From a bacterium (GTDB taxonomy: Bacteria; Margulisbacteria; Marinamargulisbacteria; JABIPA01): a DNA stretch of 64,000 nt. The notes under the pieces are model-generated. The model saw only the letters and a program-made list of their open reading frames with translations, searched no databases and was not told the origin of the DNA. Where the stretch lies: contig JABIQV010000137.1 in the NCBI GenBank assembly GCA_018699495.1, forward strand, positions 6,880 through 70,879. The letters run 5' to 3'. This document shows, piece after piece, positions 35,228-57,494 of the stretch. Made by a program: the position numbers and the translations under genes. Position 1 is the stretch's first letter. Each line of letters starts with the position of its first letter.

Positions 35228-35265
35228 CGATTAGTCCCTTAAGCGAGTTTGTTCTCTGTAGTGAG

Positions 35266-35295
35266 CCGGGTCTATGACTTTTGAAATAGACCCGG
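35266..35295. terminator. hairpin (10-bp perfect stem ccgggtctat/atagacccgg) downstream of sdhB, a candidate operon terminator
   Basis: Seen directly. No strong U-tract follows, hence the modest confidence. Confidence 0.4.
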
Positions 35296-35365
35296 TATTA
35301 AGTAAATATGCCGTAGTTAACACTAGATTTATATCAGAACTCTATAAAAACCGTAGCAATTTAAA

Positions 35366-38034: not shown

Positions 38035-38043
38035 AATTTCCTC

Positions 38044-38715
38044 CTACGCCGTTGGCGCAAATCCTAGATAAATTAGGATTGCAATCGCACTAAAACCAAG
38101 CATTAAACCAGTAGCTAATCCTACGCTCGTTTTTTTAATGAGATGGTTATATTTTTCGCTGAATATCCCAAATGTTTGAAAAACGCTTTGTATTGCATGC
38201 GATAAATGGCAACCTAAAGCGGCTAAACCAATACAGTAGCCGATAACTCTAAATATATTTTGAAAATAATTGTAAACAAGCCCATATAAACCTAAGTCTT
38301 CCCCCATAACGATACTCGCAGCACCATGATGATTCGTAAAACGAAAGTCGATAAGATGAAAAATAATAAATATAAGAAGAGCCGTTCCAGATATTGGCAT
38401 AATTTTGACCAAGATTTTTGTTGCAACTTCTTCTCGATATCCTTTTTTACGTGCACGCTTATTTTCGACAACAATTTTAAATGTTGTAAATAAATGAAGA
38501 AGGAAAATTCCAAGTAGGCCGAATTCAATAACATAAAGAAATGGTTTCGTAGATTGAAGGGTGTTTACCCAAGCGTTAAATACGTCTGGACCTTTGAATA
38601 AAAGAAAGTTCTCAAGCAGATGAATAACCACAAATGCACTCAACATAAGTCCAGTAAGAGCGGCTATTTGTTTTTTCCCAATTGATGACGCAAAATATTG
38701 TTTAATAGGTAACAT
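38044..38715 (-). CDS. sdhC: succinate dehydrogenase cytochrome b subunit (single-subunit, 5-TM type)
   Basis: 223 aa and 5 TM helices, with His residues positioned for bis-heme ligation (HLLENF, HLFTTF, HLIDF, HLSHAI). Directly upstream of sdhA. Confidence 0.7.
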   Translation of the reverse strand: MLPIKQYFASSIGKKQIAALTGLMLSAFVVIHLLENFLLFKGPDVFNAWVNTLQSTKPFLYVIEFGLLGIFLLHLFTTFKIVVENKRARKKGYREEVATKILVKIMPISGTALLIFIIFHLIDFRFTNHHGAASIVMGEDLGLYGLVYNYFQNIFRVIGYCIGLAALGCHLSHAIQSVFQTFGIFSEKYNHLIKKTSVGLATGLMLGFSAIAILIYLGFAPTA

Positions 38716-38728
38716 ATGAATTTCCTTT

Positions 38729-39667
38729 TTAACCTACGGTTAAAGCTAATTTATCAACAACGGTTTGAACAGCTTGAGCTGAAGACTGAAGTGATTTTTT
38801 TTCGCTTTCATTGAGGTTTAATTCAATAATTGATTCTATTCCATTTGCCCCAAGTGCAACTGGAACGCCACAGTAAAGGTTATCGATTCCATATTCGCCA
38901 TTACAAAGTGCACATACAGGAAGAATTCGTTTTGAATCCAAAACTATAGCTTCAACCATTGCTACAGCAGAAGACGAAGGAGCATAGAAAGCGCTGCCTG
39001 TTTTTAGAAATTTGACGATTTCAGCTCCACCGTGTTTTGTTCGATTATTAATTTCTTCGATTTTTTCAGCAGGTAATAATTCAGTAATAGTAATTCCATT
39101 TACAGTAGAAAATTGTGGTACGGGAACCATTGTATCTCCGTGGCCACCTAATACCATTGCTCTAACATCTTTAATAGAACAATTTAAAGCTTCAGCGATA
39201 AAACAAGCATATCGAGATGAATCCAAAACACCAGCCATTCCAAATACTTTTTTGGAAGGAAGGCCAGACTTTTGCCACGCCAAGTGAGTCATGACATCTA
39301 AAGGATTAGAAACGATAACAAATATTGCATTTGGAGAATACTTAGTCGCTTGTTCTACAACACTGCCAACTATTTTTGCATTTGTATTTAAAAGGTCATC
39401 TCTAGACATGCCAGGTTTTCGTGCTATTCCTGCTGTTACTACAAAGATGTCTGAATTTGCTGTGTCTTCGTAATTGTTTGTTCCTATGATTTTTGTGTCA
39501 AAGCCTTCTACAGCAGCAGATTGCATCATGTCTAATGCTTTTCCTTGAGGCATTCCCTCTACGATATCAATAAGAACGACATCAGCAAGTTGCTTTTCTA
39601 CGATTCGCTGAGCGGCAGTTGCCCCTACAAATCCTGCCCCTACTACTGTTACTTTATGCTTAGCCAT
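38729..39667 (-). CDS. mdh: malate dehydrogenase (LDH-like, NAD-dependent)
   Basis: [19 protein letters not shown] Rossmann fold. Substrate-specificity Arg in [13 protein letters not shown]. Catalytic His in [10 protein letters not shown]. Confidence 0.9.
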
Positions 39668-39755
39668 ATTAATGCTCCTTTAATTATATTAGATTAATTA
39701 GTTTATTTTATGAAAATTTTATGTTTAACAAGACGTCATTATAGCGAGGAATTAT

Positions 39756-39795
39756 CATATGCATAACCCCTTTAGCTAAAGGGGTTATGCATATG
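39756..39795. promoter_or_regulatory. perfect 40-bp palindrome (20-bp arms) 89-128 bp upstream of mdh; candidate operator or structured element
   Basis: catatgcataacccctttag|ctaaaggggttatgcatatg. Verified base by base as a perfect reverse complement. No flanking U-tract on either strand. Confidence 0.4.
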
Positions 39796-39812
39796 AGAGA
39801 GGATTAGGGAAA

Positions 39813-40142
39813 TTAGAGGACATTAATGGAGGAATCAATAATTCTTGCCCATTCAACCATTCCTCCAATCATATTCCTAACCTTTTTGAAGTTTTTGGAA
39901 AGAAGGAATTTAGTTGCAGCACCGCTTCGTCCACCTACTCTACAAATAACGATGTAATTACCCGTTATATCTAAAGATGATACGTTTTCTTCAATTTTGC
40001 TGAGGGGAAAAAACATCGCATTAGAAATGTGACCAAACTGGAATTCTTGTTCTTCACGAACATCGAGTAAAACGATATCAGACATTGATTCGGAGTTTAG
40101 TTGAGAAACGTCGGTACATGTGATTTCAGGTATAGGTAACAT
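39813..40142 (-). CDS. rhodanese-like single-domain sulfurtransferase
   Basis: Active-site Cys loop ICRVGGRSGAATKFL. 109 aa. Confidence 0.75.
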   Translation of the reverse strand: MLPIPEITCTDVSQLNSESMSDIVLLDVREEQEFQFGHISNAMFFPLSKIEENVSSLDITGNYIVICRVGGRSGAATKFLLSKNFKKVRNMIGGMVEWARIIDSSINVL

Positions 40143-42038: not shown

Positions 42039-44390
42039 ATGTTACGATTTTATGAAATTGCAGATACAATTGACCAAGAAGTCAATCAATTTGAAGAAGA
42101 TATTAAGGATTTTGTAGCCGGGACAATTAACCCCATTAAATTCAAAGCTATTCGGGTGGCTCACGGCATTTATGAGCAACGACAAGAGCATACGTATATG
42201 ATACGAATAAGATGTGCTGCCGGAGGAATAACTCCGGTGCAGCTTAAAAAATGTTCTGAGCTTGGTGAACAGTATGGCAGTGGCGAGGTTCATTTTACGA
42301 CACGTAGAGAAGTTCAGCTGCACAACGTATTGATTCAAGATATAGTAACTGTTATCCGGGAATTATTAACCGTAGGGTTAAGCACACGTGGTGGCGGTGG
42401 GAACACAATTAGAAATATCCTAACATCACCAAATTCAGGTGTAGATAAAGAAGATATTTTTGATGTTGATCCTTATGCAATTGAATTAACATCTCGAATG
42501 GTTAAAGAACCTGATTCATGGAATTTACCAAGAAAGTTTAAAATTGCATTTTCAAATAATTCAAAAGACACGGCCTATACGCAAGCAACTTGCTTAGGGT
42601 TTGTGGCGACTAAAAAAGAAGATCAAGACGGGTTCGAAGTGTATTGTGCGGGGGGTATGGGTGCTAAGCCAATGGTTGGGCACCTATTGATGGACTTCGT
42701 GCCAGCAGAGAAAGCCTACCAAGTGACGAAAGCGTTAAAGGTCATGTTTGATAAACATGGAAACAGACGAAGTAAATTTTCAAATCGGCTAAAATTTTTA
42801 TGGAAAAAATTACAGCGAGAAGAATTTGTGAGTTTGTTTCTTGAAGAATATAATAAGATCTCTTCAGATAAGAATCTGGATTTGAAAATTGTCGATTTAG
42901 ACAATAGACCAAAAATAGATGCCTCTGTAAAAGTGGACGCTCCAAAAGACGATAAATTTGACATTTGGAAAGAAAGATATTGTTTGGCTCAAAAACAAGA
43001 GGGGTTGTATTGTATTAAAATCCCGTTGCAGCTTGGTGATTTAGTTTCAAATGACGGACTGTCGTTAACTAAATTAGTAGAGTTGTTTGGTGAAAATACG
43101 ATTCGGTGTGATAGAGCTCAAAATATTCGGTTAAGGAATATACCTGAAGCTTATTTGGGAAATATATATAACTGTGTAAGTTCATTCGAGAGGTCTCTTG
43201 TTGAGCATGCGTCTTTTATAGGAAACATGATTAATTGCACCGGAGCTCAAACATGTAAATTAGGTATTTGTTTGCCAAGAGGATTATCTGTGGCAATTCG
43301 TGATAAATTGGTTTCGTCTAACTTGGATTTAGATAGATTAGCTGATTTCCGATTAAATATGTCTGGATGTCCAAACACATGTGGATTACATCATATTGCT
43401 GATTTAGGATTCTTTGGCAAAGTGGCTAGAAAAGAAGGTCAGATGTATCCAGCTTACTATGTTCTTGCGGGAGCACGTGTAGCCGCTGGAGAAACAAAGT
43501 ATGCTGAAAAATTAAATGAAATTGCTTCACATCATATTCCGAATTTTGTTCATGATTTTTTGCAAGCGTATTTGATTAATGCGGAAGAATACAAAAATTA
43601 TCAAGATTATTTAGAAGATGAAGGCAAAGACGTTATTAAATCATTGTGTGAAAAATATAGTAATGTTCCTTTGTTTAGTGAAGACGAATCATTTTACATA
43701 GACTTTGGAGCGACTAGAAAATTATCGTTGGACGAAATGGGATCTGCTGAGTGTTCCGCAGGAATGTTTGACATGATTGATGTAGATAGAAAAGTTATTC
43801 GAAGAGAGCTTAAGCAACTTGATGCTGGAACAGGCACTTTAGAAGAAAGCTTGTACAATATTACCTTTTCTTCAACTAGAATGCTTCTTGTAACGAGAGG
43901 TCTAGATGTAAAGAGAGACGAACAGGCTTTTCAGTCATTTGATAAACATTTTGTAGAAACAGATCTAATTTCAAAAGAGTTTAGGTCAGTCGTTCAGCTG
44001 GGAGAATTGGTAGCAAAAGGTGACTTAGACAAATCTGTTTTAACAGGTAAAAAATCTGAAATTATTGGGCTTTCTTCAGCCGTAAATGAACTTTATACAA
44101 ATATGGATGACAGTCTGAGATTTAAAAAAGAAACAGTTGTTTCCGTTGATAAAAAGGAAGAAGCTGAACTTGTCGAAAAGGATTATAGAGGCGTTGCGTG
44201 TCCGATGAATTTTGTGAAGACAAAATTAGTTTTGGAAATGATTGCATCTGGTCAAAAACTACAGATACTTTTAGACGATGGGGAACCAATTGAAAATGTT
44301 CCTAACTCTGTAAAACTTGAAGGACATAAAATTTTAGAGCAGATAAAAACACCAGATGGTCACTGGCAAGTATTAATTCAAAAAAAATAA
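42039..44390 (+). CDS. ferredoxin-type sulfite/nitrite reductase hemoprotein fused to a C-terminal TusA-like sulfur-carrier domain
   Basis: Siroheme/4Fe-4S Cys clusters NCTGAQTCKLGIC and MSGCPNTCGLHH. C-terminal YRGVACPMNFVKTKLVLEMI...LLDDGEP has the TusA CPxP motif. Confidence 0.75.
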   Translation: MLRFYEIADTIDQEVNQFEEDIKDFVAGTINPIKFKAIRVAHGIYEQRQEHTYMIRIRCAAGGITPVQLKKCSELGEQYGSGEVHFTTRREVQLHNVLIQDIVTVIRELLTVGLSTRGGGGNTIRNILTSPNSGVDKEDIFDVDPYAIELTSRMVKEPDSWNLPRKFKIAFSNNSKDTAYTQATCLGFVATKKEDQDGFEVYCAGGMGAKPMVGHLLMDFVPAEKAYQVTKALKVMFDKHGNRRSKFSNRLKFLWKKLQREEFVSLFLEEYNKISSDKNLDLKIVDLDNRPKIDASVKVDAPKDDKFDIWKERYCLAQKQEGLYCIKIPLQLGDLVSNDGLSLTKLVELFGENTIRCDRAQNIRLRNIPEAYLGNIYNCVSSFERSLVEHASFIGNMINCTGAQTCKLGICLPRGLSVAIRDKLVSSNLDLDRLADFRLNMSGCPNTCGLHHIADLGFFGKVARKEGQMYPAYYVLAGARVAAGETKYAEKLNEIASHHIPNFVHDFLQAYLINAEEYKNYQDYLEDEGKDVIKSLCEKYSNVPLFSEDESFYIDFGATRKLSLDEMGSAECSAGMFDMIDVDRKVIRRELKQLDAGTGTLEESLYNITFSSTRMLLVTRGLDVKRDEQAFQSFDKHFVETDLISKEFRSVVQLGELVAKGDLDKSVLTGKKSEIIGLSSAVNELYTNMDDSLRFKKETVVSVDKKEEAELVEKDYRGVACPMNFVKTKLVLEMIASGQKLQILLDDGEPIENVPNSVKLEGHKILEQIKTPDGHWQVLIQKK

Positions 44391-47610: not shown

Positions 47611-48540
47611 ATGAAATATAAAATATTATCTTCTGGAATTTGGAACTCTTTTTTCTCAAAAAAAGACACTTGCGTGTTATGTGATTTAATTCAGAATAAT
47701 TGTTTAGACGAAAAAGTTGGTAAGCGTGTTGTAGACCGAATGAGAAGCTGTTTTGATTTAGGGATTTATAATCAAAGTTCGTCTAAAGAAGTGTTTTCTA
47801 AAAAAGTGAGTGAAAGTTTAATTAAGTTTTCTGGAGATATGCATTTTCAATTAAATTACAATCCAGAAAAAATTGATAAAAGTAATGAAGAGCGAGTGCA
47901 TTTGGAATTTTGTGCTAGTCGAAATTATGGATTTGAAGGCTTGAATGACTTGGGAAATAATATTATCCATTTAGTTGTTGGCGGATTTGTAGACCCAAAT
48001 TTAGGAAATAAAAGTGCGGAAAAGGCTTGTATCAATGAACTAAAAAAATTGAAATTAAAGAGTCCTAAAGTGGTAATCATTGATTTAAGAAATAATGGAG
48101 GAGGGCATCCGAAAATGGTGTACCTATTAGCAAGCTTTTTTTTACCAGAATTTACATCTTTGAGCAAAATTAGAATTAAGGAAAATGGAAATATTAGTAC
48201 TTCTGATTATCGTACGCACTCGTATGAGGAGATTCCAATTCAGGATAGGATATTAGACGCCAGGCTACATATATTAACAAGCTCTCAAACCTTCTCTGCT
48301 GCAGAAGAATTTGTTTATTTGATGAAGCATTTAAGAGATGCAAAGGTAATAGGCGAAAAAACCAAGGGAGGAGCACATCCTTGTTCAACTCATCATATCA
48401 ATGATGATTTTTCAGTGTGTGTTCCAAATGGGGAAATAATTGTTTCAAAAACAAATGGAAATTGGGAAGGAACAGGAGTTTTACCGGATATTGAATGTTG
48501 CTCAACCGAGGCTTTGAAAACATCGTTAAAAACATTATGA
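47611..48540 (+). CDS. S41 (C-terminal processing / tail-specific) peptidase-like protein without signal peptide or PDZ domain
   Basis: IIDLRNNGGG and TSSQTFSAAEEF (catalytic Ser) with downstream Lys are the S41 Ser-Lys dyad motifs. No hydrophobic N-terminus. Confidence 0.55.
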   Translation: MKYKILSSGIWNSFFSKKDTCVLCDLIQNNCLDEKVGKRVVDRMRSCFDLGIYNQSSSKEVFSKKVSESLIKFSGDMHFQLNYNPEKIDKSNEERVHLEFCASRNYGFEGLNDLGNNIIHLVVGGFVDPNLGNKSAEKACINELKKLKLKSPKVVIIDLRNNGGGHPKMVYLLASFFLPEFTSLSKIRIKENGNISTSDYRTHSYEEIPIQDRILDARLHILTSSQTFSAAEEFVYLMKHLRDAKVIGEKTKGGAHPCSTHHINDDFSVCVPNGEIIVSKTNGNWEGTGVLPDIECCSTEALKTSLKTL

Positions 48541-49296: not shown

Positions 49297-49791
49297 TTAT
49301 TTGATTTGGCTTCGATTTCCAAGTCCTTTATCGAACATTAAAAGTCCTGCAGAGTTATCTTTTATCATATTAAGTTCAGTTAAAATATCCCTAAACGTCA
49401 CTTCCTCCTCAACTTGTTCAGTAACGAACCCTTGAAGAAAGTTTTCGGCAGAATAATCTTTTTCTAATTTTGCTATGGAAACAAGTGCATTTATTTTTTT
49501 TGAAATAGTTTTTTCATGAGCTAGCCCAGACTCGAAAACATCTTGAATTGTAGCCCAAGTGGTTGTCGGCTTATTTATTCCTTCAAGAGAAACACTTCCT
49601 TCAACATCAGAAATAAACGAACTAAATTGTTTGTAGTGGTCATATTCTTCGTCTGCCTGAAGAGACATCCAATGCGCACTTCCTTTGTACCCTTTGTTCT
49701 CCAAATCATTCGACATTGCCAAATAGATGTAAAAAGATTCGAGTTCCGCATTGCATTGAATATTTAGAGCATCTTGCATTTTTTTTGTCAT
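49297..49791 (-). CDS. non-heme ferritin (Ftn-like)
   Basis: Ferroxidase-centre ligands in ELESFYIYLAMS / EEYDHYKQF / AHEKT. 164 aa. Confidence 0.8.
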   Translation of the reverse strand: MTKKMQDALNIQCNAELESFYIYLAMSNDLENKGYKGSAHWMSLQADEEYDHYKQFSSFISDVEGSVSLEGINKPTTTWATIQDVFESGLAHEKTISKKINALVSIAKLEKDYSAENFLQGFVTEQVEEEVTFRDILTELNMIKDNSAGLLMFDKGLGNRSQIK

Positions 49792-50129
49792 AGTAGTGAC
49801 TCCTTTTTTAGTTTGTAGACCGTTAAAAAGATAGTAAGTAGGTTACGTTTCAATCGTGGCCTAGTTCAATTTTTAAACATTTTATTAATATAAGATTTTT
49901 TCTTTTATTAATTTATTAAGCTCAATTGTACTAGAAAACTAGAATTCAGGCTATTTTTCGAAAAGTCGTGTAGTTACGAAATGACTAAAACGTTAGTAGA
50001 AGTGAAGAGCAATGGGGGTTGTATGGAACGACTATTTGGGGTTCTAAAGCGGAAATTGGCCAATAATTAATGACTAGGTCCCTTGATTAAATTTGACTGG
50101 ATAACTAAATATTTGTAAACTTGTGCCCC

Positions 50130-51584
50130 ATGAAACGAGTACGATTTGCACCATCCCCAACAGGAAATTTACATATAGGAACGCTTAGAACAGCTTTATT
50201 TAATTGGTTGTTTGCAAAGAGATACAATGCCACTTATATTCTAAGAATAGAAGATACGGATAAAGCCAGATCTAAACCTGAATATGAAGGCAATATATAT
50301 GAAGGAATGGATTGGATGGGAATTATTGAGGACGAGGGACCTAAAAAAGGTGGGAAGTTTGGACCGTACAGGCAAACCGAGCGAATCGTAGATGGTATTT
50401 ACCAAAAACAACTTGATAGATTACTGGAAGAAAAGAAAGCCTATTATTGTTTTTGTACGGATCACGATTTGGACGGTGAACGGGAAGACGCGAAACATAA
50501 AAATCGGCCCTATATTTATTCAAGAAAGTGTCTACATCTGAGCGCAGAAGAAATCGATGAAAAGTTAAAGTCCGACATATCTAGAACAGTAAAATTTGAA
50601 ATTCCTGATACGAAGTCACTCATTGTATCCGATGGCGTTCGGGATGATATCGACTTTGACTGTAGGTTAATTTCTGATTTTGTTTTACTTAAGTCGGATG
50701 GGAACCCTTCCTATAACTACTCTGTCGTTGTAGATGACGCCTTAATGGGAATTACAGATGTGATTCGGGGTGAAGACCATATCTCAAATACTCCAAGACA
50801 ATTGTTACTGTTTAAAGCCTTAGGCTTCACTCCACCTCAATACCATCATTTACCTATGATATTGGGCCAGGATAAAAGTAAACTCTCAAAACGGCATGGG
50901 GCAACAGCTGTAACGGACTACGAAAATCAGGGTTATTTATCGGATGCGTTATACAACTTTTTAGCGTTACTTGGGTGGTCTCCTACGGATACCACCGAAA
51001 TTTTCGATAGAACATCTCTTTCCACTTTATTTTCGATGGACAGAATATCCAAGTCTAACGCAGTATTTGATGTTACAAAACTAAAGTGGATGAATGGACA
51101 GTATATTAGGTCATTAGAACCAGCCGCGCTTGCCGAAAAAGTTAAACCATTTATAGATGATATCAATTTAGCAATATTAGATACATACACAGAAAGTGAC
51201 GTTGTGAAAATCATTTATTCTGTAAGAGATAACATTGCATTATTACCAGATATAAATGGATACTTGGAATCGTTTAATACATCCTTTATATCCTTTTCAG
51301 AGAAGGTTAAATCTTTTCAGTTTTCGGATAGCGAGAAGCAGGTTGTTTTAGATTTTTGTTGCAGTGTTTTTGAACACTCTGAATTCACATCAGAGAATAT
51401 ATCAGAAACAATGGATGTTATTGTTACCAAAAATGATGGCAAAAAGGGAAAAGTATTCAAGCCAATTCGTAAAGCGTTGATAGGTCTTGAAAGAGGTCCC
51501 AACATAGTAGAAATAGTAAGCCTTTTAGGAAAAGACGTTCTTTCAGAGCGTGCTTCCTTTTTAGGTAAGTATTTTTCTGCCTGA
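50130..51584 (+). CDS. gltX: glutamate--tRNA ligase
   Basis: HIGH motif (SPTGNLHIGTLRTALFNW) and KMSKS motif (KLSKRHG). Confidence 0.9.
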   Translation: MKRVRFAPSPTGNLHIGTLRTALFNWLFAKRYNATYILRIEDTDKARSKPEYEGNIYEGMDWMGIIEDEGPKKGGKFGPYRQTERIVDGIYQKQLDRLLEEKKAYYCFCTDHDLDGEREDAKHKNRPYIYSRKCLHLSAEEIDEKLKSDISRTVKFEIPDTKSLIVSDGVRDDIDFDCRLISDFVLLKSDGNPSYNYSVVVDDALMGITDVIRGEDHISNTPRQLLLFKALGFTPPQYHHLPMILGQDKSKLSKRHGATAVTDYENQGYLSDALYNFLALLGWSPTDTTEIFDRTSLSTLFSMDRISKSNAVFDVTKLKWMNGQYIRSLEPAALAEKVKPFIDDINLAILDTYTESDVVKIIYSVRDNIALLPDINGYLESFNTSFISFSEKVKSFQFSDSEKQVVLDFCCSVFEHSEFTSENISETMDVIVTKNDGKKGKVFKPIRKALIGLERGPNIVEIVSLLGKDVLSERASFLGKYFSA

Positions 51585-51813
51585 AGCGTCTCCAGATAGA
51601 CTCTAAATTTATCCTAACCTTCAAGTTACAAATAAACCCCCGACTGTAGATTTGTTAGCAGGGGGTAATGAACCTTTAATTTTTAGATATTAGTAATAGC
51701 TTGAACTGTTAGTTTATTAAGGGGCAATAATATTTTTTTAGAGAAATTTAGTGAAACTTAAAGTGAAATATATTTTGTCGAACATACAAAATCGCAAATT
51801 TTTGAGGGGAATA

Positions 51814-52140
51814 TTATTTAAAAATTTTAATTCTAGGGGTTCCGTGAGGAGGTTTGTGGGTAGGTTCCAACTCCAACTCCAAATCATGTAGAGTAATATC
51901 TGCCTTATTAAGAACTATATTTGAGTTATTCAAATCTACTGGACTTACCAATTGAGCTTGACGCGCTTCCAACTGAACTTTAGATGATGGGTCCTTAATT
52001 ATGGAACGGTTGGAAGGGTGGTTATCATATCCTCTGACATTGAGGGTTCCTGGTTGCGTTATATTTTTTGGATCAATACCACTTGGTAAAGGAGTGGCTA
52101 AAAGATGAGGAATCTTACTGGGTATTGAGTGAATTGACAT
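51814..52140 (-). CDS. hypothetical Pro-rich small protein
   Basis: ORF only. No motif support. Confidence 0.3.
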   Translation of the reverse strand: MSIHSIPSKIPHLLATPLPSGIDPKNITQPGTLNVRGYDNHPSNRSIIKDPSSKVQLEARQAQLVSPVDLNNSNIVLNKADITLHDLELELEPTHKPPHGTPRIKIFK

Positions 52141-52233
52141 AATTGGTTCCTATTCAGTTTCTAATTTATTTCAACGTGTATAGACATTATCTAACCTAGT
52201 ATTTAATATATCAAGATAGTTGGTAAAAATCAA

Positions 52234-53151
52234 ATGTTGAAAGATAAAATACATAAAAATTTATTAGAAATATCCCAAAAATTTGTTCGAATTCGAGGCC
52301 GCAATGTGCACAAAGGATCCTGTGGCAAGGTTTTAGTCATTGCTGGGTCGTTAGATATGATTGGTGCGGGAATATTAACGTCAATGGCATGTCTGAAGGC
52401 GGGAGCTGGTGTCGTTCATTTTGTAACTGTCAGGGATGTCGTTCCATTTATTTCTATTTCTTATCCTGAATTAATTGTTCATGGAATGGAAAGCGAAAAC
52501 GGAGTATTAACTCACTCATGCTTTGACTTAATTAAATCTCTTTTTCAGAAATATAGTTTCGATGCCTGTGCTATTGGACCGGGTTTAACTCAATGTTTAA
52601 GTGTTTCAAAATTGGTACACTCATTGATTGGTTATTTATCGGAAAGAAAATGCAAAACCGTAATAGATGCAGACGCGTTGACTATTCTTTCAGATCTGCC
52701 AGCCGACGTTTTGGGGACGTCTGAAAATTATGTCTTAACTCCTCATATGGGAGAATTTAAACGGCTATATCGTTCGGACTTAAAAATTGATTTTGTGGAT
52801 AAAAATAATAGGTGTGATGTCGCTAAACAATTGGCAGTATCTGTAAACCAAGTAGTGTTGTTAAAGGGGCCTGGAACCGTGGTTACGGACGGGAATAAAA
52901 GCTACATAAATTTCACCGGAAATGAAGGAATGGCGACAGCTGGTTCCGGGGATGTTTTGACAGGAATAATAGCTTCATTTTTAGCGCAAGGATTAGTTTC
53001 TTTTGAGGCAGCGTGCTTCGGTGCATATATTCATGGCTTAAGCGGAGACAAGGCATTTGGTATAAATGGGATAGGGTTAATTGCATCCGATATTTTGGAT
53101 GAGGTGCCGCGTAGTTTAAAAAAATTAAAGGATTTTCATGATAACTCTTAA
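52234..53151 (+). CDS. nnrD: ADP-dependent NAD(P)H-hydrate dehydratase (YjeF C-terminal domain)
   Basis: KGSCGKVLVIAGS..., LLKGPGTVVTDG, GMATAGSGDVLTGIIASFLAQG are signature motifs. Confidence 0.8.
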   Translation: MLKDKIHKNLLEISQKFVRIRGRNVHKGSCGKVLVIAGSLDMIGAGILTSMACLKAGAGVVHFVTVRDVVPFISISYPELIVHGMESENGVLTHSCFDLIKSLFQKYSFDACAIGPGLTQCLSVSKLVHSLIGYLSERKCKTVIDADALTILSDLPADVLGTSENYVLTPHMGEFKRLYRSDLKIDFVDKNNRCDVAKQLAVSVNQVVLLKGPGTVVTDGNKSYINFTGNEGMATAGSGDVLTGIIASFLAQGLVSFEAACFGAYIHGLSGDKAFGINGIGLIASDILDEVPRSLKKLKDFHDNS

Positions 53152-54400
53152 AATTCGGAACAAAATTCGGGACCACTTAAACGTGACAAATGACTATTTT
53201 TTTTCCGGGCCATTTGGATTGGAGAAATTCAGTCTGGATAACATATGTTTGTTTTTGGAGGATGAATCCTGTTTTGGGTTGGCTTTAAAGAGACCTAAAC
53301 ATAAAGGTATTTTATATGGTGTATGTCATGCCTTAGCAAGACGAGTTTTAAATTTTCTATCGGTTGAAGAGAGAGTTGGGATTGTTTCTAAAAAGCTTTC
53401 ATATTTTGGAATTTGGTCAATGTTGAGCAAGTTTTTAGATAGGGAAATGTCGGCCGATAATTTGACGGATGTGTCGGATATTGGAATGGGAGATTCAATA
53501 TATTTATTAACGTTTAATAATGTGAAGAAAAAAGTTGTGCTAAAAGGAAAGGGGCAGTGTACGCAATCTATTTTTGGGGACTTTTTGCATCAACTTGATT
53601 TGCCACATGTAACAAGTTGCTATTATGAAAGCCGCGGAAAAGGGTGGGAACTTTCAGAATGTGCCGAAATTAAAAATTTAAGCGACACGGTAAGTAAGGA
53701 AAATGTGGAAACTTATATATCAGATCTAGGGATGCACGCAGCGATAGGCGATGTGTTAGGTAGAGGGGACAGGCATTTAGAAAATTATGGGATTAAAGAA
53801 GATCGTGTGGTCCCTTTTGATGTTTCGTTTTTATTTTGTAAAGACAATAATAAGTGGTGTATGAAGTATCTTTTTGGTGGGATGTATGAGTTTTCAACTC
53901 TTTGGTATATGTCCAGATCGGCTCGTTTTGAAGAGTGTGTAGGCAAGTTTTTTAAAGGGTACGAAAAGGGGATTTCTCGGTTACAAGATAACGTGACGGC
54001 GATTGAAACATTAGTGGATAGAGTCTTAAAAAATGAGTCGTTGGAAAACAGTCTGTTAGTAAATAGAGAGCATAAAGCTGAAATTTTGGAACGAGTAATC
54101 GATAAGTTAAACTCAGAATCTTTTTTAATGGAGCAGACCTGTTTATATAGAGAAAGTTTTAAGGAAATGAAGAAGCGCCAGGTATATAAGGAACTATTAA
54201 ATCAACTATATGAATCAAAGCCCGAAGTGATTAAAAAAAATCAGTTACTCTATATGTACTATTTATCTGACAAAGATCGGGTATCAAGTTTTTTTCTGAG
54301 CGAAGACAAACCCATGAATCTTTTCGATGATATTGAAAAATTGGCAAAATCTGTATTAGATTTAGAAAAGATAGAAATAGTCCGCCGAATCAACGATTAA
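53138..54400 (+). CDS. atypical kinase-like protein with a PI3/4-kinase / HipA-type catalytic loop
   Basis: GRGDRHLENYG matches DRHxxN of PI3/4K and DxHxxN of HipA_C. An activation-segment-like PFDVSF lies 18 residues later. Overlaps the nnr stop by 14 nt. Confidence 0.4.
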   Translation: MITLKIRNKIRDHLNVTNDYFFSGPFGLEKFSLDNICLFLEDESCFGLALKRPKHKGILYGVCHALARRVLNFLSVEERVGIVSKKLSYFGIWSMLSKFLDREMSADNLTDVSDIGMGDSIYLLTFNNVKKKVVLKGKGQCTQSIFGDFLHQLDLPHVTSCYYESRGKGWELSECAEIKNLSDTVSKENVETYISDLGMHAAIGDVLGRGDRHLENYGIKEDRVVPFDVSFLFCKDNNKWCMKYLFGGMYEFSTLWYMSRSARFEECVGKFFKGYEKGISRLQDNVTAIETLVDRVLKNESLENSLLVNREHKAEILERVIDKLNSESFLMEQTCLYRESFKEMKKRQVYKELLNQLYESKPEVIKKNQLLYMYYLSDKDRVSSFFLSEDKPMNLFDDIEKLAKSVLDLEKIEIVRRIND

Positions 54401-55875
54401 ACAAGGTTATAAAAAAATTGCTTGGATTCGTCGAGCACCGTTTCTCCAAATTTTTTGTCTATGGATTCGGAATATATTCGTCCTATAGGCTCGGTTCCGG
54501 AAAGTCGTATAAGTACCCAGCTGTCATTTTCAAAGTTTATTCTTAATCCATCCGTTTGGTTAATAGTTTTAACAGACGTACTAAAAAACTGATTTAATTC
54601 ATCAGAAGAAATTGATGAAAGTTTGTCTATAATTAAAGGTTTATTGGTTTGTTCAAAGCTGACTTCAGTCTCTGCAAAAAAGAAGTTTCCATATTTTTTC
54701 TTTATATTTTCTCGAAGGACGGACAAGGGAATATTCGTTTCAGAGAGAATATATAATATGTAAATTGCAGGTAAGAAACCACATTTATCAAACGAATGAA
54801 ACGACGTAGAAAACCCACCAGACGATTCTATCCCTGCAACAAACTCTTGATGGTTAAACGCGTTGTCAAAAAATGGGGAAAAATATTTAAAACCTACGCC
54901 AGTTTGATGATAGGTAATGTTATTTTTCAAGCAAAATGTTTGAAGTATATTTGATGAAGCAACCGTTGAAGCTACGCCATGAATAGGCATTCCCTGTTCA
55001 TGAAGATAGTCGAGAATGATTACGGACGATTCTTCAGGGGTTAAGTGATTGCCCGTTTCATCTAATATTATATGGCGGTCACCGTCGGGGTCATTACTAA
55101 CACCAAGCGCCGCTTTGTTTAATCTAATGGACTCTTTTAAAGCAGTTAACGAAGAGATTTTGGTTGGGTTAGGTTCAATATTTGCAAAGTCAGAAAGTGG
55201 TTCGTTGTGGAGCAGATGAAAAGGTGATTTGAGCGAATTAGCAAATTTTGACCAAATCGACCCAGTTGTTCCATGTTTGGCATCTACGCAAAACGGGATG
55301 GTGTTATTGATAGAAAGGCCTGAGCGACGGACTTCTGAAAGAACGGATTCTACAAAGGAATCATCGTGATCAATGAATGAGATGTAGGGTGTATCGGATT
55401 CTTTGATTTTTAAAGAATGAGTCGACTCAGGGTTATATAGTTTATTTGCTGACACCTCAATTGTGTCCGTGACATATTGAGGTGCAGGGGCTCCATTTTT
55501 TATATTGTATTTTAGACCATTATATTCTTTTGGATTATGGGAAGCCGTTAAAATAAAACCGCCGCAACAGGTATTGTTTTTTATATACCAAGATACGACT
55601 GGAGTAGGTGTTACATGATCAAAAATTTGAATGTTAACTTTATTTTTTGCACAAATAGAAGCAATGGCCTGGGTATATGAACCCTCTTGTAACGTTGGTG
55701 AATTACCGGTTCTTGGATCATAACCTAAACATAAAGTCGGGTTTGATTCTGTTTCTTTAACGATGTCACATACGGCTTGGGTAATGGAGATAACGTGTTC
55801 AACCGTAAAAGACTCTCCCTGAATACCTCTATGACCAGATGTTCCAAAACGGATAGGGTGTTTGATTTTGATCAT
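54397..55875 (-). CDS. phosphomannomutase/phosphoglucomutase (alpha-D-phosphohexomutase family)
   Basis: Active-site phosphoserine loop TASHNPKEYNGLK and metal-binding DPDGDR. Confidence 0.85.
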   Translation of the reverse strand: MIKIKHPIRFGTSGHRGIQGESFTVEHVISITQAVCDIVKETESNPTLCLGYDPRTGNSPTLQEGSYTQAIASICAKNKVNIQIFDHVTPTPVVSWYIKNNTCCGGFILTASHNPKEYNGLKYNIKNGAPAPQYVTDTIEVSANKLYNPESTHSLKIKESDTPYISFIDHDDSFVESVLSEVRRSGLSINNTIPFCVDAKHGTTGSIWSKFANSLKSPFHLLHNEPLSDFANIEPNPTKISSLTALKESIRLNKAALGVSNDPDGDRHIILDETGNHLTPEESSVIILDYLHEQGMPIHGVASTVASSNILQTFCLKNNITYHQTGVGFKYFSPFFDNAFNHQEFVAGIESSGGFSTSFHSFDKCGFLPAIYILYILSETNIPLSVLRENIKKKYGNFFFAETEVSFEQTNKPLIIDKLSSISSDELNQFFSTSVKTINQTDGLRINFENDSWVLIRLSGTEPIGRIYSESIDKKFGETVLDESKQFFYNLV

Positions 55876-55917
55876 TAGTAAGTTACCTCAAATAAGTTTT
55901 TAAATTAAACAAAATAT

Positions 55918-56004
55918 TGGTACCGAGAACAGGACTTGAACCTGCACGAAGTTGCCTTCACTAGCCCCTCAAGCTAGCGTGTCTACCAATTCCACCACCT
56001 CGGC
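55918..56004 (-). tRNA. tRNA-Leu(GAG), type II with long variable arm, CCA encoded
   Basis: The reverse complement reads GCCGAGGTGGTGGAATTGGTAGACACGCTAGCTTGAGGGGCTAGTGAAGGCAACTTCGTGCAGGTTCAAGTCCTGTTCTCGGTACCA. Anticodon loop is TTGAGGG. Confidence 0.9.
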
Positions 56005-56140
56005 ATTCTTAAGGAATAATAGTTTATACTGGAAGCTGAATAATGTGAATTATTGATTTTTTTAATTTTTGGGATTAACACGGATTAATAAGCAGATTTT
56101 ATCTTGAGGCTTCATTAAGGAACGGCTAATATATAAGGTT

Positions 56141-57016
56141 ATGACAAAACTTTCTTATTTTAAAATTGGAAAACAAACATTTGATATGTCGAAGCCTCAT
56201 ATAGTTGGTGTTTTGAATATGACTCCAGATTCGTTTTCAGATGGCGGTCAGTTTTTAGATACAGATAGAGCCTTGGTTCAAATTGAAAAGCTAATTCAAG
56301 ATGGTGCGTCTATTATTGATATTGGAGCGGAATCAACGCGTCCAGGAGCGGATAATATCGATGCTTCTAAACAGATACAAAGACTTAGTCCTGTAGTTAA
56401 AGCGTATAAAAAATATTTCTCTGCCCCGTTGTCAATTGATACGACCAACTCTGATGTGTTTTCTTATTGTCTTTCAAATGGAGCAGACATGCTGAATGAT
56501 GTATCTGGCCTTCAAGATGACCTTAAAATGATAGATATTGTTTCAGAGGCAGGATGCTCGGTAGTAATCATGCATAGACAAGGAATGTCAAAAACGATGC
56601 AAGACGACCCTCGTTATAAAAATGTAATAGACGAAATTTCTTCTTTTTTTTCAGATACATGTAGAAAATTAAAGAGCAACGACGTATCTTCTATTTTGAT
56701 TGACCCGGGAATTGGATTTGGGAAGTCTCTAGATCATAATTTAAAGATATTACGGAATTTAGATGAATTGTGTCACGCCGATTTCCCTCTTTTTATTGGG
56801 ACCTCCCGTAAGTCTTTTATAGAGCATGTTACGGGAGCTTCGTTCGCGGAACGACTGCCAGGCACTATTGCTTCAAATTTGTATGCATTTCAAAAAGGCG
56901 CTCGATTTTTTAGGGTTCACGATGTTAAGGAACTAAAACAATCGTTTGATATTCATGACGCAATTATTAACGGAGATATCAATAAAAGCAGGAAAGTTGG
57001 GGATAAAATTGGCTAA
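56141..57016 (+). CDS. folP: dihydropteroate synthase
   Basis: VGVLNMTPDSFSDGG and the pterin-binding barrel motifs (DIGAESTRPG, SIDT). Confidence 0.9.
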   Translation: MTKLSYFKIGKQTFDMSKPHIVGVLNMTPDSFSDGGQFLDTDRALVQIEKLIQDGASIIDIGAESTRPGADNIDASKQIQRLSPVVKAYKKYFSAPLSIDTTNSDVFSYCLSNGADMLNDVSGLQDDLKMIDIVSEAGCSVVIMHRQGMSKTMQDDPRYKNVIDEISSFFSDTCRKLKSNDVSSILIDPGIGFGKSLDHNLKILRNLDELCHADFPLFIGTSRKSFIEHVTGASFAERLPGTIASNLYAFQKGARFFRVHDVKELKQSFDIHDAIINGDINKSRKVGDKIG

Positions 57017-57494
57017 ACAAATTGAACAGGATATATTTTTAGGACTAGGATCTAATTTAGGCAATAAACAGGCTCAAATTTATTCTGCAATAGCTCAATT
57101 AAAGCAGAACCCCGCCATTCGGATTATCGAAGTGTCTAAGTTTTATAAAACGGAAGCAGTGTCTAACGATGAGCAGCCTCCATACATTAATGCAGCTTTA
57201 AAAATAGAAACATCATTGTCTCCACAAGAACTTTTAAAAGTTACACAGGATGTGGAAAAAAAATTAGGAAGAACAGGGAAGTCAACCAATAAAAGTCGGC
57301 TCATAGATATTGATATTCTTTTTTACAATAATCATATTATATGTGATGAGGACTTAATTATTCCCCATCCTCGTGCTCATGAGAGAGAATTTGTTTTGAT
57401 TCCAATGATGGATTTATCTCGACGATTTGAGCATCCAATGGTGGACGAATCGATAGAAACCATTTACAAGAGGATAGTCAGTATTTCTGAGTAG
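57009..57494 (+). CDS. folK: 2-amino-4-hydroxy-6-hydroxymethyldihydropteridine pyrophosphokinase
   Basis: IFLGLGSNLG, DIDIL and PHPRAHEREFVLIPM are HPPK motifs. Probable TTG start at 57009 or 56997, overlapping the folP stop. The ORF-track start at 56946 is probably too far upstream. Confidence 0.8.
   Translation: MAKQIEQDIFLGLGSNLGNKQAQIYSAIAQLKQNPAIRIIEVSKFYKTEAVSNDEQPPYINAALKIETSLSPQELLKVTQDVEKKLGRTGKSTNKSRLIDIDILFYNNHIICDEDLIIPHPRAHEREFVLIPMMDLSRRFEHPMVDESIETIYKRIVSISE

What the first reader, a model, noticed from the sequence alone, without database searches (positions are those of the whole stretch)
53138..54400. Bacterial ORF with a PI3/4-kinase / HipA-type catalytic loop, translationally overlapping nnr
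**What the sequence shows:**
- The 420-aa product contains GRGDRHLENYG. This is a literal match to the DRHxxN catalytic loop of the PI3K/PI4K/PIKK superfamily, and to DxHxxN of the HipA_C toxin kinases.
- Exactly 18 residues downstream lies PFDVSF, at the spacing of the DFG / Y-D-L-V-S activation-segment metal ligand.
- A Gly/Lys-rich stretch (VVLKGKGQCTQS) about 80 residues upstream is positioned like a nucleotide-binding loop.
- No HipB-like HTH partner is adjacent. Instead the gene overlaps the stop of NAD(P)H-hydrate dehydratase by 14 nt, which suggests co-expression.

**Inference:** this is an atypical lipid or protein kinase fold in a spirochete-like core region, of unknown substrate. 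It could be an orphan HipA-like kinase (YjjJ/CtkA style), or a novel small-molecule kinase functionally linked to metabolite repair.
Basis: partly seen in the sequence, partly recalled or inferred. Interest (0 to 1): 0.7.

Follow-up and report, generated by a model that had tools for sequence, protein, structure and literature searches.

The report
Uncharacterised bacterial PI3K/PIKK-like kinase family
The ORF is a real, strongly conserved gene for a soluble kinase whose catalytic core most resembles the PI3K/PI4K/PIKK kinases known mainly from eukaryotes (and LanM lanthipeptide dehydratases); it defines an unnamed family found almost only in the candidate phylum Margulisbacteria, and its link to the neighbouring NAD(P)HX-repair gene is inherited gene order, not a functional pairing.

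Summary
ORF 53138-54400 (+) encodes 420 aa containing GRGDRHLENYG (208-218) and PFDVSF (226-231), and it overlaps the nnrD stop by 14 nt.

The catalytic set is invariant or nearly so across 76 members that share 22-37% identity with the window protein (one closer ortholog at 75%): K136, D211, H213, N216, D228 and P-loop D114/G116.

All 30 genome loci carry Margulisbacteria-type labels or unresolved ones, so the region is not spirochete-like. nnrD lies upstream in only 16 of 28 loci, gltX in 11, and a distant clade sits between a tautomerase gene and trpFBA. The nnr functional link is therefore not supported.

Best reading: an active, soluble ATP/Mg kinase with a housekeeping role and an unknown substrate, forming a new family in a known superfamily.

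The parts
53138..54400 (+). 420-aa kinase-like ORF, a member of an unnamed PI3K/PIKK/LanM-like family
53138..53452 (+). N-terminal helical region (aa 1-105) specific to the family, with invariant R68 and N72 and near-invariant L59, Y60, H64, K86
   Evidence: Helices 4-20, 33-41 and 62-100 in the model. Conservation counts. No Pfam match.
53477..53497 (+). P-loop equivalent D114-I-G-M-G-D-S120 on the beta1-beta2 hairpin
   Evidence: D114 and G116 are 76/76. Strands 109-114 and 121-126. D114->K136 is 22 residues, as in CylM D252->K274 and LtnM1 D198->K220.
53543..53545 (+).
   Evidence: 76/76 invariant. Lies on strand 132-137. Aligned by hhalign to LtnM1 K220, the LanM ATP lysine.
53759..53788 (+). 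Catalytic loop G208-R-G-D-R-H-L-E-N-Y217 (GDRHxxN)
   Evidence: D211 74/76 (plus 2 E), R212 75/76, H213 76/76, N216 76/76. Aligned to GDRHxxN of Vps34 and Mec1 and to DMHYSN of LtnM1.
53819..53836 (+). DFG-equivalent D228-V-S-F-L-F, with D228 the metal-binding Asp
   Evidence: D228 76/76, L232 and F233 over 90%. Aligned to HIDFG of Vps34, VDFDCLF of Mec1 and IDLETLF of LtnM1.
53846..53890 (+). Activation-segment-like conserved stretch N237..W240..Y244..G248..E251. It is aromatic/acidic, not basic, and is the probable acceptor-binding site (inference).
   Evidence: Y244 76/76, W240 and E251 75/76, N237 72/76.
54245..54304 (+). C-terminal family signature L370-L-Y-M-Y-Y-L-S-D-K-D-R-V-S-S-F-F-L-S-E389. 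Inferred to pack against the activation segment as k-alpha11/FATC does in PIKKs or the KA domain does in LanM.
   Evidence: M373 75/76, Y374 71/76, R381 67/76, F385 72/76. pLDDT above 90. The structural role is inference by analogy.
52234..53151 (+). nnrD: stand-alone NAD(P)HX dehydratase (305 aa, no YjeF_N epimerase domain), upstream and co-directional
   Evidence: Pfam Carb_kinase 2.9e-54, aa 33-293. Adjacent to the kinase in 16 of 28 loci only.
53128..53151 (+). Junction: AAGGA (53128-53132), 5-nt spacer, kinase ATG (53138), and the 14-nt overlap with the nnrD stop (TAA at 53149-53151)
   Evidence: Sequence read directly. Similar overlaps of -4 to -41 nt occur with either nnrD or gltX as the upstream gene.
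50121..51584 (+). gltX (glutamyl-tRNA synthetase), the more constant upstream member of the syntenic block
   Evidence: Pfam tRNA-synt_1c 5.7e-92. Present upstream in most loci.
54397..55875 (-). Phosphoglucomutase/phosphomannomutase gene, convergent, with stop codons overlapping by 4 nt. A constant downstream neighbour, but it cannot be co-transcribed with the kinase.
   Evidence: Pfam PGM_PMM_I-IV. Synteny.

Best explanation
The gene encodes a soluble, cytoplasmic, catalytically competent Mg-ATP phosphotransferase. It belongs to a previously unnamed family on the PI3K/PI4K/PIKK-LanM ('lipid-kinase-like') branch of the protein-kinase-like superfamily.

Mechanism, by homology:
- The beta1-beta2 hairpin D114-IGMG and K136 on beta3 hold the ATP phosphates.
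- N216 and D228 bind the metal ions.
- D211/H213 of the GDRHxxN loop orient and deprotonate a substrate hydroxyl for in-line attack on the gamma-phosphate.
- The aromatic/acidic segment 237-251, the family-specific N-terminal helices (R68, N72) and the C-terminal MYYL..R..FF motif probably shape the acceptor site. This last point is inference.

The family behaves as a vertically inherited core gene of Margulisbacteria-type bacteria, and it always sits inside compact housekeeping operons.

The phosphate acceptor is not established. My ranking is a protein/peptide Ser/Thr hydroxyl (as in PIKKs and LanM) at about 40%, a soluble metabolite at about 30%, and a phosphoinositide or other lipid at about 15%.

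Shown here: the fold, conservation of the catalytic residues, purifying selection, taxonomic range, and the lack of a fixed nnr partnership. Inferred: actual kinase activity, residue roles, and substrate class.
For: Fold:
- AF2 pLDDT 81.5 with 6 sequences and 94.7, pTM 0.92, with 76 sequences. Topology is canonical: three N-lobe strands, a helix, two more strands, a hinge, a long helix, the catalytic loop, a beta6/7 hairpin, the D228 segment, then helices.
- Foldseek top hit is Vps34, E 3.6e-4.

Sequence:
- The family profile against PDB returns only PI3K/PIKK among the 60 hits shown (Mec1 3.2e-5, Vps34 1e-4).
- In Pfam, PI3_PI4_kinase is touched by 40/76 members (best 3.3e-5) and DUF4135 by 38/76 (best 3.5e-9).
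- hhalign to LtnM1/LtnM2 gives E 3.8e-4, in register from the P-loop through Lys, DxHxxN and PID..LF.

Conservation and selection:
- K136, H213, N216, D228, D114 and G116 are 76/76; D211 is 74/76.
- dN/dS is 0.09, similar to the neighbouring PGM at 0.075.

Soluble: no TM-like segment, GRAVY -0.31, family median pI 5.8.

Core/housekeeping:
- The gene holds the same syntenic slot across 30 species-level genomes.
- The other two contexts are also housekeeping (dnaB, rpsT, accDA; rpoD, trpFBA, maf).
- There is no significant PADLOC or PHROG match.
Against: - No enzymatic data exist for any member, and every database name is 'hypothetical protein'.
- Neither PF00454 nor PF13575 reaches its gathering score on the window protein (DUF4135 scores 21.1 bits against a cutoff of 29; PF00454 is not reported).
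- hhalign probability to LanM is only 36%.
- K136 could not be aligned directly to a PI3K lysine, because the search for full-length PI3K sequences returned only fragments.
- Some distant relatives (P0132, P0141, P0145) have degraded catalytic loops, so parts of the wider family may be non-catalytic.
- Gene context gives no consistent substrate clue.
Confidence: 0.75

Rival explanations
1. It is a phosphoinositide or other membrane-lipid kinase, a functional PI3K/PI4K analogue that phosphorylates an inositol-lipid headgroup at the inner membrane face.
Against: - PIKK protein kinases (mTOR, Tel1) score just as high, and the best sequence hit is Mec1.
- The post-DFG segment is aromatic/acidic rather than basic.
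- The protein is acidic and lacks strongly hydrophobic segments.
- No PIK helical, C2 or other lipid-kinase accessory domain was found.
- The IMPase-family neighbour is missing from the P0003 locus, where glycosyltransferase genes occupy that side.
- PI synthesis in this phylum was not examined and is not known to me.
Confidence: 0.15
2. It is a LanM-like bifunctional kinase/lyase (a stand-alone DUF4135 dehydratase) that phosphorylates Ser/Thr of a peptide or protein and then eliminates the phosphate.
For: - DUF4135 is the best Pfam lead (window 2e-4; best member 3.5e-9; 38/76 members).
- hhalign to LtnM1/M2 is in register.
- The P-loop Asp D114 is invariant, at the LanM spacing of 22 residues before the Lys. 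The D->D spacing of 17 also matches CylM.
- PID[IL]xxLF resembles the LanM motif PIDLETLF.
- A conserved R381-x-S383 lies about 150 residues after D228, roughly where CylM R506/T512 lie.
Against: - The LanM P-loop His (CylM H254, at D+2) corresponds to an invariant Gly116.
- The alignment stops before the KA domain, and the protein is about 200 residues shorter than a LanM dehydratase domain.
- R381 is only 67/76 conserved, and its spacing to S383 (2) differs from R506-T512 (6).
- No LanC-like cyclase, precursor peptide, transporter or other RiPP gene appears in any of the three contexts.
Confidence: 0.08
3. It is a functional partner of NnrD: a kinase acting in NAD(P)HX or NAD-related metabolite repair, co-expressed through the 14-nt overlap.
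For: - The 14-nt overlap and internal SD.
- nnrD is immediately upstream in 16 of 28 loci, down to 28% kinase identity.
- nnrD here lacks the usual epimerase domain.
- One distant kinase-like segment (P0146) lies on the same strand as NUDIX, nicotinamidase-like and NAPRTase genes.
- The distant clade is near maf, a house-cleaning enzyme.
Against: - 11 of 28 loci have gltX, not nnrD, upstream. One has dnaB plus an unknown gene.
- nnrD-less loci are interspersed with nnrD-bearing ones in the kinase tree, so the kinase persists without the neighbour.
- The distant clade (P0149, P0155, P0156) has no nnr nearby.
- Start/stop overlap occurs equally with gltX, so it reflects compact operons.
- The whole block gltX..tsaE is syntenic housekeeping.
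Confidence: 0.06
4. It is an orphan HipA/CtkA-type toxin or effector Ser/Thr kinase.
Against: - No member hits HipA_C at E<=1.
- There is no HipB/HTH partner.
- The gene sits in a fixed syntenic slot with dN/dS 0.09, unlike mobile toxin-antitoxin loci.
- No PADLOC hit.
Confidence: 0.03
5. It is a non-phosphotransferase: a kinase-fold ATPase or scaffold, in the way Bud32 acts as an ATPase in KEOPS, or a pseudokinase.
Against: Within the main family every residue needed for phosphotransfer is invariant or nearly so, including the catalytic D211/H213 pair. tsaE is three genes away on the other side of a convergent gene and is not linked in the other contexts.
Confidence: 0.05

Closest known systems
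PI3K/PI4K/PIKK catalytic domain (Pfam PF00454; e.g. Vps34, PI3Kalpha, PI4KIIIbeta, mTOR, ATM/Tel1, ATR/Mec1, SMG1)
   Different: - Stand-alone 420-aa bacterial protein with no PIK helical, C2, FAT or FATC regions, and no PF00454 hit on the window protein.
- DFG is replaced by D-[IVL]-S.
- The Asp-Asp spacing is 17 residues; the alignment to Vps34 needs a one-residue gap there.
- It has a P-loop Asp (D114).
- The activation segment is acidic/aromatic.
- It has its own N-terminal helical region and C-terminal MYYL..R..FF motif.
LanM class II lanthipeptide synthetase dehydratase domain (DUF4135, PF13575; CylM, LicM2, LtnM1/M2)
   Same: - Strongest Pfam lead (best member 3.5e-9; 38/76 members).
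- hhalign in register across P-loop, Lys, DxHxxN and PID..LF.
- Identical spacings: Asp(P-loop)->Lys 22 and Asp->Asp 17.
- Bacterial origin.
   Different: - About 200 residues shorter, with no alignable KA domain or capping helices.
- The LanM P-loop His is an invariant Gly here.
- No fused or neighbouring LanC cyclase, precursor peptide or transporter.
- Window protein is below the Pfam threshold (21.1 vs 29 bits).
- Housekeeping rather than biosynthetic-cluster context.
Actin-fragmin kinase (Physarum, PDB 1cja) and other minimal atypical kinases (PI4KIIalpha, CotH)
   Different: No sequence-level signal to these families. Their catalytic-loop motifs and accessory elements differ.
HipA / CtkA (HipA_C, PF07804)
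   Same: Same superfamily fold, with a DxHxxN-type loop followed by an Asp-containing strand.

Membership tests
PI3K/PI4K (Pfam PF00454 PI3_PI4_kinase) | Profile match at or above the Pfam gathering score | tested here: not met
   The window protein has no PF00454 hit even at E<=10. 40 of 76 family members match only weakly, best E 3.3e-5.
PI3K/PI4K (Pfam PF00454 PI3_PI4_kinase) | Catalytic loop GDRHxxN | tested here: met
   G210-D-R-H-L-E-N216. D211 74/76, R212 75/76, H213 and N216 76/76. Aligned to the Vps34 and Mec1 loops.
PI3K/PI4K (Pfam PF00454 PI3_PI4_kinase) | Metal-binding Asp of the DFG motif after the catalytic loop | tested here: met
   D228 is 76/76 and aligns to the D of HIDFG (Vps34) and VDFD (Mec1). 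The motif itself is D-[IVL]-S, not DFG, and the alignment to Vps34 needs a one-residue gap between the two Asp.
PI3K/PI4K (Pfam PF00454 PI3_PI4_kinase) | ATP-binding Lys on N-lobe strand beta3 | tested here: inconclusive
   K136 is invariant, lies on predicted strand 132-137, and aligns to the LanM ATP lysine. No residue-level alignment to a PI3K lysine was obtained (one search returned only fragments).
PI3K/PI4K (Pfam PF00454 PI3_PI4_kinase) | Three-dimensional similarity of the catalytic domain | tested here: met
PI3K/PI4K (Pfam PF00454 PI3_PI4_kinase) | PIK helical accessory domain / C2 or other lipid-kinase modules | tested here: not met
   The Pfam scan at E<=10 shows nothing besides weak DUF4135. 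The protein is only 420 aa.
PI3K/PI4K (Pfam PF00454 PI3_PI4_kinase) | Phosphoinositide kinase activity | not testable with these tools
   Requires a biochemical assay.
PIKK protein kinases (mTOR/ATM/ATR/SMG1) | FAT and FATC regions flanking the kinase domain | tested here: not met
   No such Pfam hits, and the length is 420 aa. The conserved C-terminal motif 370-389 has no detected similarity to FATC.
PIKK protein kinases (mTOR/ATM/ATR/SMG1) | Kinase-domain fold and catalytic loop | tested here: met
LanM dehydratase domain (DUF4135, PF13575) | Profile match at or above the Pfam gathering score | tested here: not met
   Window protein scores 21.1 bits against a cutoff of 29. 38/76 members match, best E 3.5e-9. 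hhalign to LtnM1/M2 gives probability 36%, E 3.8e-4.
LanM dehydratase domain (DUF4135, PF13575) | Phosphorylation residues (CylM K274, D347, H349, N352, D364) | tested here: met
   K136, D211, H213, N216 and D228, with spacings 75 and 17 against 73 and 17 in CylM.
LanM dehydratase domain (DUF4135, PF13575) | P-loop elimination residues Asp252 and His254 | tested here: not met
   The Asp is present (D114, 76/76, 22 residues before the Lys as in CylM). The position two residues later is an invariant Gly116, not His.
LanM dehydratase domain (DUF4135, PF13575) | KA-domain elimination residues Arg506 and Thr512 | tested here: inconclusive
   The hhalign match ends at residue 236, so no KA domain is alignable. 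A conserved R381 (67/76) and S383 exist at a roughly comparable distance, but with different spacing.
LanM dehydratase domain (DUF4135, PF13575) | Association with a LanC-type cyclase and precursor peptide genes | tested here: not met
   Neighbours are gltX, nnrD, PGM, folP, folK and tsaE, or dnaB/rpsT/accDA, or rpoD/trpFBA.
HipA_C toxin kinases / CtkA | HipA_C profile match | tested here: not met
   0 of 76 members at E<=1. None for the window protein at E<=10.
HipA_C toxin kinases / CtkA | Adjacent HipB-type antitoxin / toxin-antitoxin organisation | tested here: not met
   No HTH gene is adjacent. The PhdYeFM/YoeB pair next to the kinase in L003/L004 is a separate, complete TA module and is absent elsewhere.
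HipA_C toxin kinases / CtkA | Closest structural neighbour | tested here: not met

The most novel reading that the evidence does not exclude
This family is a vertically inherited, housekeeping bacterial lineage of the PI3K/PI4K/PIKK-type kinase domain. It sits in sequence and structure between the PI3K/PIKK kinases, known mainly from eukaryotes, and the bacterial LanM dehydratase domain. As a free-standing prokaryotic 'minimal PI3K/PIKK core' it could represent the ancestral state of that branch, and it may regulate a core process in Margulisbacteria through a substrate class not yet associated with this fold in bacteria.
Probability: 0.2. Interest if true: 0.8.

Novelty: new variant of a known kind. 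Interest (0 to 1): 0.55.

Why it matters
As far as I know, PI3K/PI4K/PIKK-type catalytic domains are regarded as essentially eukaryotic. The bacterial examples I am aware of are secreted effectors or the heavily elaborated LanM dehydratase domain.

This family is different. It is compact (about 400-470 aa), soluble and strongly constrained. It has about 190 sequence clusters, nearly all from one candidate phylum related to Cyanobacteria, and it sits in core operons. It keeps every catalytic residue of that kinase branch, yet no Pfam or NCBIfam model reaches its threshold on the window protein, and every source name seen for a member is 'hypothetical protein'.

Three things follow:
- It offers a tractable minimal model for the PI3K/PIKK catalytic core.
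- It is a data point for how the PI3K/PIKK and LanM kinase domains are related.
- It is a candidate regulator or enzyme of unknown substrate in a phylum with no cultured free-living representatives that I know of.

The practical outcome for annotation is a new family definition. The tempting 'nnr-linked metabolite-repair kinase' and 'HipA-like toxin' labels should not be propagated.

Tried and rejected
It returned only exon-sized fragments of 105 aa or less. This was a dead end.
- The afdb50 fold library was not available, so no search was made against predicted structures of uncharacterised bacterial proteins.
- The promoter/terminator scan of 49500-56500 was not enriched over shuffles and says nothing about operon boundaries.
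- Rfam found only two tRNAs and no rRNA, so the window itself could not be placed by rRNA. Taxonomy rests on the record titles of related loci. The closest genome (76% identity) is labelled only 'bacterium'.
- NCBIfam, PADLOC and PHROGs gave nothing meaningful.
- Literature searches found no description of this family.
- HipA/CtkA membership was considered and rejected.
- A RiPP/LanM role was considered and rejected: no cluster genes, and the elimination residues are incomplete.
- A secreted effector role was considered because some Margulisbacteria and the PVC-labelled relative are animal-associated. It is disfavoured: no strongly hydrophobic N-terminal segment, presence in planktonic marine and lake genomes, and a fixed core-operon position.
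- P0146 (4,960 aa), with a kinase-like segment followed by NUDIX, nicotinamidase-like and NAPRTase domains, was judged a probable fused gene call and was not pursued.


Full report
**1. The observation**

ORF 53138..54400 (+) is present and encodes 420 aa. The cited strings sit at GRGDRHLENYG 208-218, PFDVSF 226-231 and VVLKGKGQCTQS 133-144. DRHxxN occurs only once in the six-frame translation of the whole window.

The upstream ORF 52234..53151 is a stand-alone NAD(P)HX dehydratase (Pfam Carb_kinase 2.9e-54; 305 aa, no YjeF_N epimerase domain). Its TAA stop at 53149-53151 lies 14 nt inside the kinase ORF. An AAGGA at 53128-53132 precedes the ATG by 5 nt. Downstream, a PGM/PMM gene converges on the ORF with a 4-nt overlap of the stop codons. 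The factual part of the finding is therefore correct.

**2. Is it a real, constrained gene family?**

A word-indexed search of 5.8 billion proteins found only five relatives, at 96, 76, 37, 29 and 28% identity. An exhaustive HMMER profile search of 1.84 billion cluster representatives found 187 at E<1e-3 and 112 at E<1e-30, mostly 380-480 aa.

I aligned 76 full-length members (A2). They are 22-37% identical to the window protein, apart from one 75% ortholog. The invariant columns are R68, N72, D114, G116, K136, H213, N216, D228 and Y244. D211 is 74 D plus 2 E, R212 is 75/76, and W240, E251, Y275 and M373 are 75/76.

Against the 76%-identical ortholog, dN/dS is about 0.09. That is comparable with the neighbouring PGM (0.075) and nnrD (0.14). 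dS is near saturation, so the figures are approximate.

**3. Fold**

AlphaFold2 with six sequences gave pLDDT 81.5 and pTM 0.82. With the 76-sequence alignment it gave pLDDT 94.7 and pTM 0.92, with the same topology:
- an N-terminal helical region (aa 1-100);
- three strands (109-114, 121-126, 132-137), a helix (142-152), and two more strands (160-165, 168-174);
- a short hinge, then a long helix (194-207) leading into the 208-217 loop;
- a beta-hairpin (217-226), then D228;
- an all-helical C-terminal half.

This is the canonical protein-kinase-like arrangement.

**4. Sequence-level relationships**

- The window protein alone has only a sub-threshold DUF4135 hit in Pfam (E 2e-4; 21.1 bits against a cutoff of 29; aa 118-235) and nothing meaningful in NCBIfam.
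- Alone against PDB sequences, it weakly matches Vps34 across the catalytic loop and DFG region (E 0.34).
- The family profile raises this to Mec1 3.2e-5 and Vps34 1e-4, followed by ATR, SMG1, PI3Kdelta/alpha/beta, ATM and TOR. All 60 listed hits are PI3K/PIKK.
- Scanning each of the 76 members against Pfam, only two families recur: PI3_PI4_kinase (40 members, best 3.3e-5) and DUF4135 (38 members, best 3.5e-9). HipA_C never appears.

DUF4135 is the dehydratase domain of class II lanthipeptide synthetases, which has a lipid-kinase fold (PMC4550811). I took two authentic LanM enzymes (LtnM1 and LtnM2 of plasmid pMRC01) and ran hhalign against the family. The result was E 3.8e-4, probability 36%, over 110 columns. 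It is in register from the P-loop through the beta3 lysine (K136 to LtnM1 K220), the DxHxxN loop (GDRHLEN to SDMHYSN) and PFDVSFLF to PIDLETLF.

The spacings match CylM closely:

| Interval | This protein | CylM |
|---|---|---|
| P-loop Asp -> Lys | 22 | 22 |
| Lys -> catalytic Asp | 75 | 73 |
| catalytic Asp -> metal Asp | 17 | 17 |

The LanM features needed for phosphate elimination are incomplete, however. The P-loop His is an invariant Gly here. The match also ends before the KA domain that carries Arg506 and Thr512.

The family therefore lies on the PI3K/PIKK-LanM branch but is not a member of either curated family.

**5.

The stretch VVLKGKGQ is not a glycine-rich loop. Only V134 and K136 are conserved (family consensus V-x-K-x-E), and they lie on beta3. 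The phosphate-binding loop is D114-I-G-M-G-x-S120, between beta1 and beta2. The 'FDV' Asp is D228, which is the DFG-equivalent.

**6. Who has it**

A scan of one genome per GTDB species found 30 loci. Their record titles are Candidatus Margulisiibacteriota, Marinamargulisbacteria, 'UBP8_UBA817', or unclassified 'bacterium'. A few MAGs carry submitter labels of Actinomycetota or Rickettsiales, but they share the same synteny. The closest genome (76%) is a Saanich Inlet MAG labelled only 'bacterium'.

Marinamargulisbacteria are described as marine, aerobic heterotrophs in a lineage sibling to the Cyanobacteria group (PMC6349859). The window is therefore not spirochete-like.

A small, distant clade (P0149, P0155, P0156; about 21% identity to the window protein) occurs in a 'PVC group bacterium' MAG from the bryozoan Bugula and in metagenomes. 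It keeps K...GRNDRHLGN...D. Other outliers (P0132, P0141, P0145) have degraded catalytic loops.

**7. Gene context and the nnr hypothesis**

Across Margulisbacteria the block is gltX - [nnrD] - kinase - PGM (convergent) - folP - folK - tsaE. Among the 28 loci with enough upstream sequence:
- nnrD is immediately upstream in 16;
- gltX is the upstream gene in 11, one of them with a 0.9-kb spacer holding an unrelated minus-strand ORF;
- L009 has yitT-dnaB-unknown-kinase, followed by DUF192, rpsT, accD and accA.

The predicted kinase start overlaps or abuts the upstream stop whichever gene that is. Offsets are -4 to -41 nt in 14 loci, with either nnrD or gltX. In a neighbour-joining tree of the kinases, nnrD-less loci are interspersed with nnrD-bearing ones, for example L014/L019 against L016/L018. 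The tree is star-like and unrooted, so this shows only that the distribution is patchy.

The distant clade sits in dnaG-rpoD-(4-OT tautomerase)-kinase-trpF-trpB-trpA-maf-dus, again tightly packed and again without nnr.

The overlap with nnrD thus reflects compact housekeeping operons and inherited synteny. It is not a dedicated partnership. The only theme common to all contexts is core, informational or biosynthetic genes, which argues for a housekeeping role. It argues against a toxin, defence, RiPP or effector function. Consistent with this, there are no meaningful PADLOC or PHROG hits.

**8. Mechanism**

By homology with PI3K/PIKK and LanM enzymes (residue roles as described in PMC4550811), I infer the following:
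- K136 and the D114/G116 hairpin position the ATP phosphates.
- N216 and D228 ligate the metals.
- D211/H213 activate a substrate hydroxyl.

Every one of these residues is invariant or nearly so, so I predict an active phosphotransferase rather than a pseudokinase.

The protein is soluble and mildly acidic: pI 6.5, family median 5.8, GRAVY -0.31, and no TM-like segment. The segment following D228 is aromatic/acidic (N237, W240, Y244, G248, E251) and not basic. Together with equal or better similarity to protein-directed PIKKs and peptide-directed LanMs, this makes a phosphoinositide substrate less likely than a protein, peptide or soluble-metabolite hydroxyl. That ranking is inference only.

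**9. Novelty and verdict**

No paper retrieved describes the family. Every source name seen is 'hypothetical protein'. No curated model reaches its threshold.

It is a new family, and a new architectural variant, within a well-known superfamily. The HipA alternative, the nnr functional link and the taxonomic guess are not supported.

Interest is moderate to fairly high. A compact, chromosomal, phylum-wide bacterial PI3K/PIKK-like kinase is unexpected and bears on the origin of that kinase branch, but its substrate and role remain unknown.

Noticed in passing
window 52234-53151: nnrD here is a stand-alone dehydratase (305 aa; the Carb_kinase domain only, aa 33-293). It lacks the N-terminal YjeF_N epimerase domain that, to my knowledge, is usually fused to it in bacteria. 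Orthologs in related loci are similarly short, with aligned ORFs of about 270-340 aa. Whether a separate epimerase exists elsewhere in these genomes was not checked.
   Followed up: partly
window 51814-52140 (-): A small divergent ORF (108 aa, Pro/Ser-rich, no Pfam hit) lies between gltX and nnrD. It has a counterpart in the 76% ortholog genome (L001 3967-4248) but is only 40% identical, with dN/dS about 0.46. It is either a fast-evolving small protein or not a real gene.
   Followed up: partly
window 47611-48540 (+): A 309-aa Peptidase_S41 (C-terminal processing protease family) ORF sits between aconitase and the cyclophilin gene. The orthologous block of the related genome (L001/L007) has no gene there, so this is a lineage-specific insertion or loss.
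   Followed up: no
window 34000-40000: GC skew is strongly positive across almost the whole window but turns negative at 34-40 kb. That stretch coincides with a run of minus-strand genes (33298-39667), so the skew seems to follow the coding strand rather than mark a replication feature.
   Followed up: no
window 42039-44390 (+): A 783-aa protein combines nitrite/sulfite reductase domains (NIR_SIR_ferr + NIR_SIR) with a C-terminal TusA sulfurtransferase domain, which looks like an unusual fusion. It is conserved in the related genome.
   Followed up: no
L003 4001-4521 and L004 3499-4019: In one freshwater lineage a complete PhdYeFM/YoeB-type toxin-antitoxin pair is inserted between the kinase gene and PGM. 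It is absent from all other loci, so it is a local insertion unrelated to the kinase.
   Followed up: no
protein P0146 (4,960 aa, Logan contig of 16,993 nt): A giant predicted protein, probably several same-strand genes fused by the gene caller. It contains a kinase-like segment (aa 2523-2699) followed by NUDIX, isochorismatase/nicotinamidase-like and NAPRTase domains (NAD salvage). This is a second, independent NAD-related neighbourhood for a relative of this kinase. It may be coincidence.
   Followed up: no
protein P0141 (538 aa): A distant relative with a degraded catalytic loop (GGRDFTN) carries a C-terminal MTS-type methyltransferase domain (aa 349-457). This is either a genuine fusion or two merged gene calls.
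   Followed up: no
L009 4379-5899 (+): In the one Margulisbacteria locus lacking gltX/nnrD upstream, the gene preceding the kinase, and apparently overlapping its start, encodes a 506-aa protein with no Pfam match.
   Followed up: no
L038-L042 (distant clade): In the distant clade, a 59-63-aa 4-oxalocrotonate-tautomerase-family gene immediately precedes the kinase-like gene. It overlaps the kinase start by 4 nt in L038/L039 and is separated by 3-4 nt in L040-L042. trpF-trpB-trpA follow directly. This order is conserved at 39-50% kinase identity.
   Followed up: partly
window 56946-57494 (+): The mechanical folK ORF (TTG start at 56946) overlaps folP by 71 nt. In the ortholog genome the called folK (161 aa, L001 9117-9602) begins just after folP ends, and the phmmer alignment starts at window residue 19. 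The true folK start in the window is therefore probably downstream of 56946.
   Followed up: no
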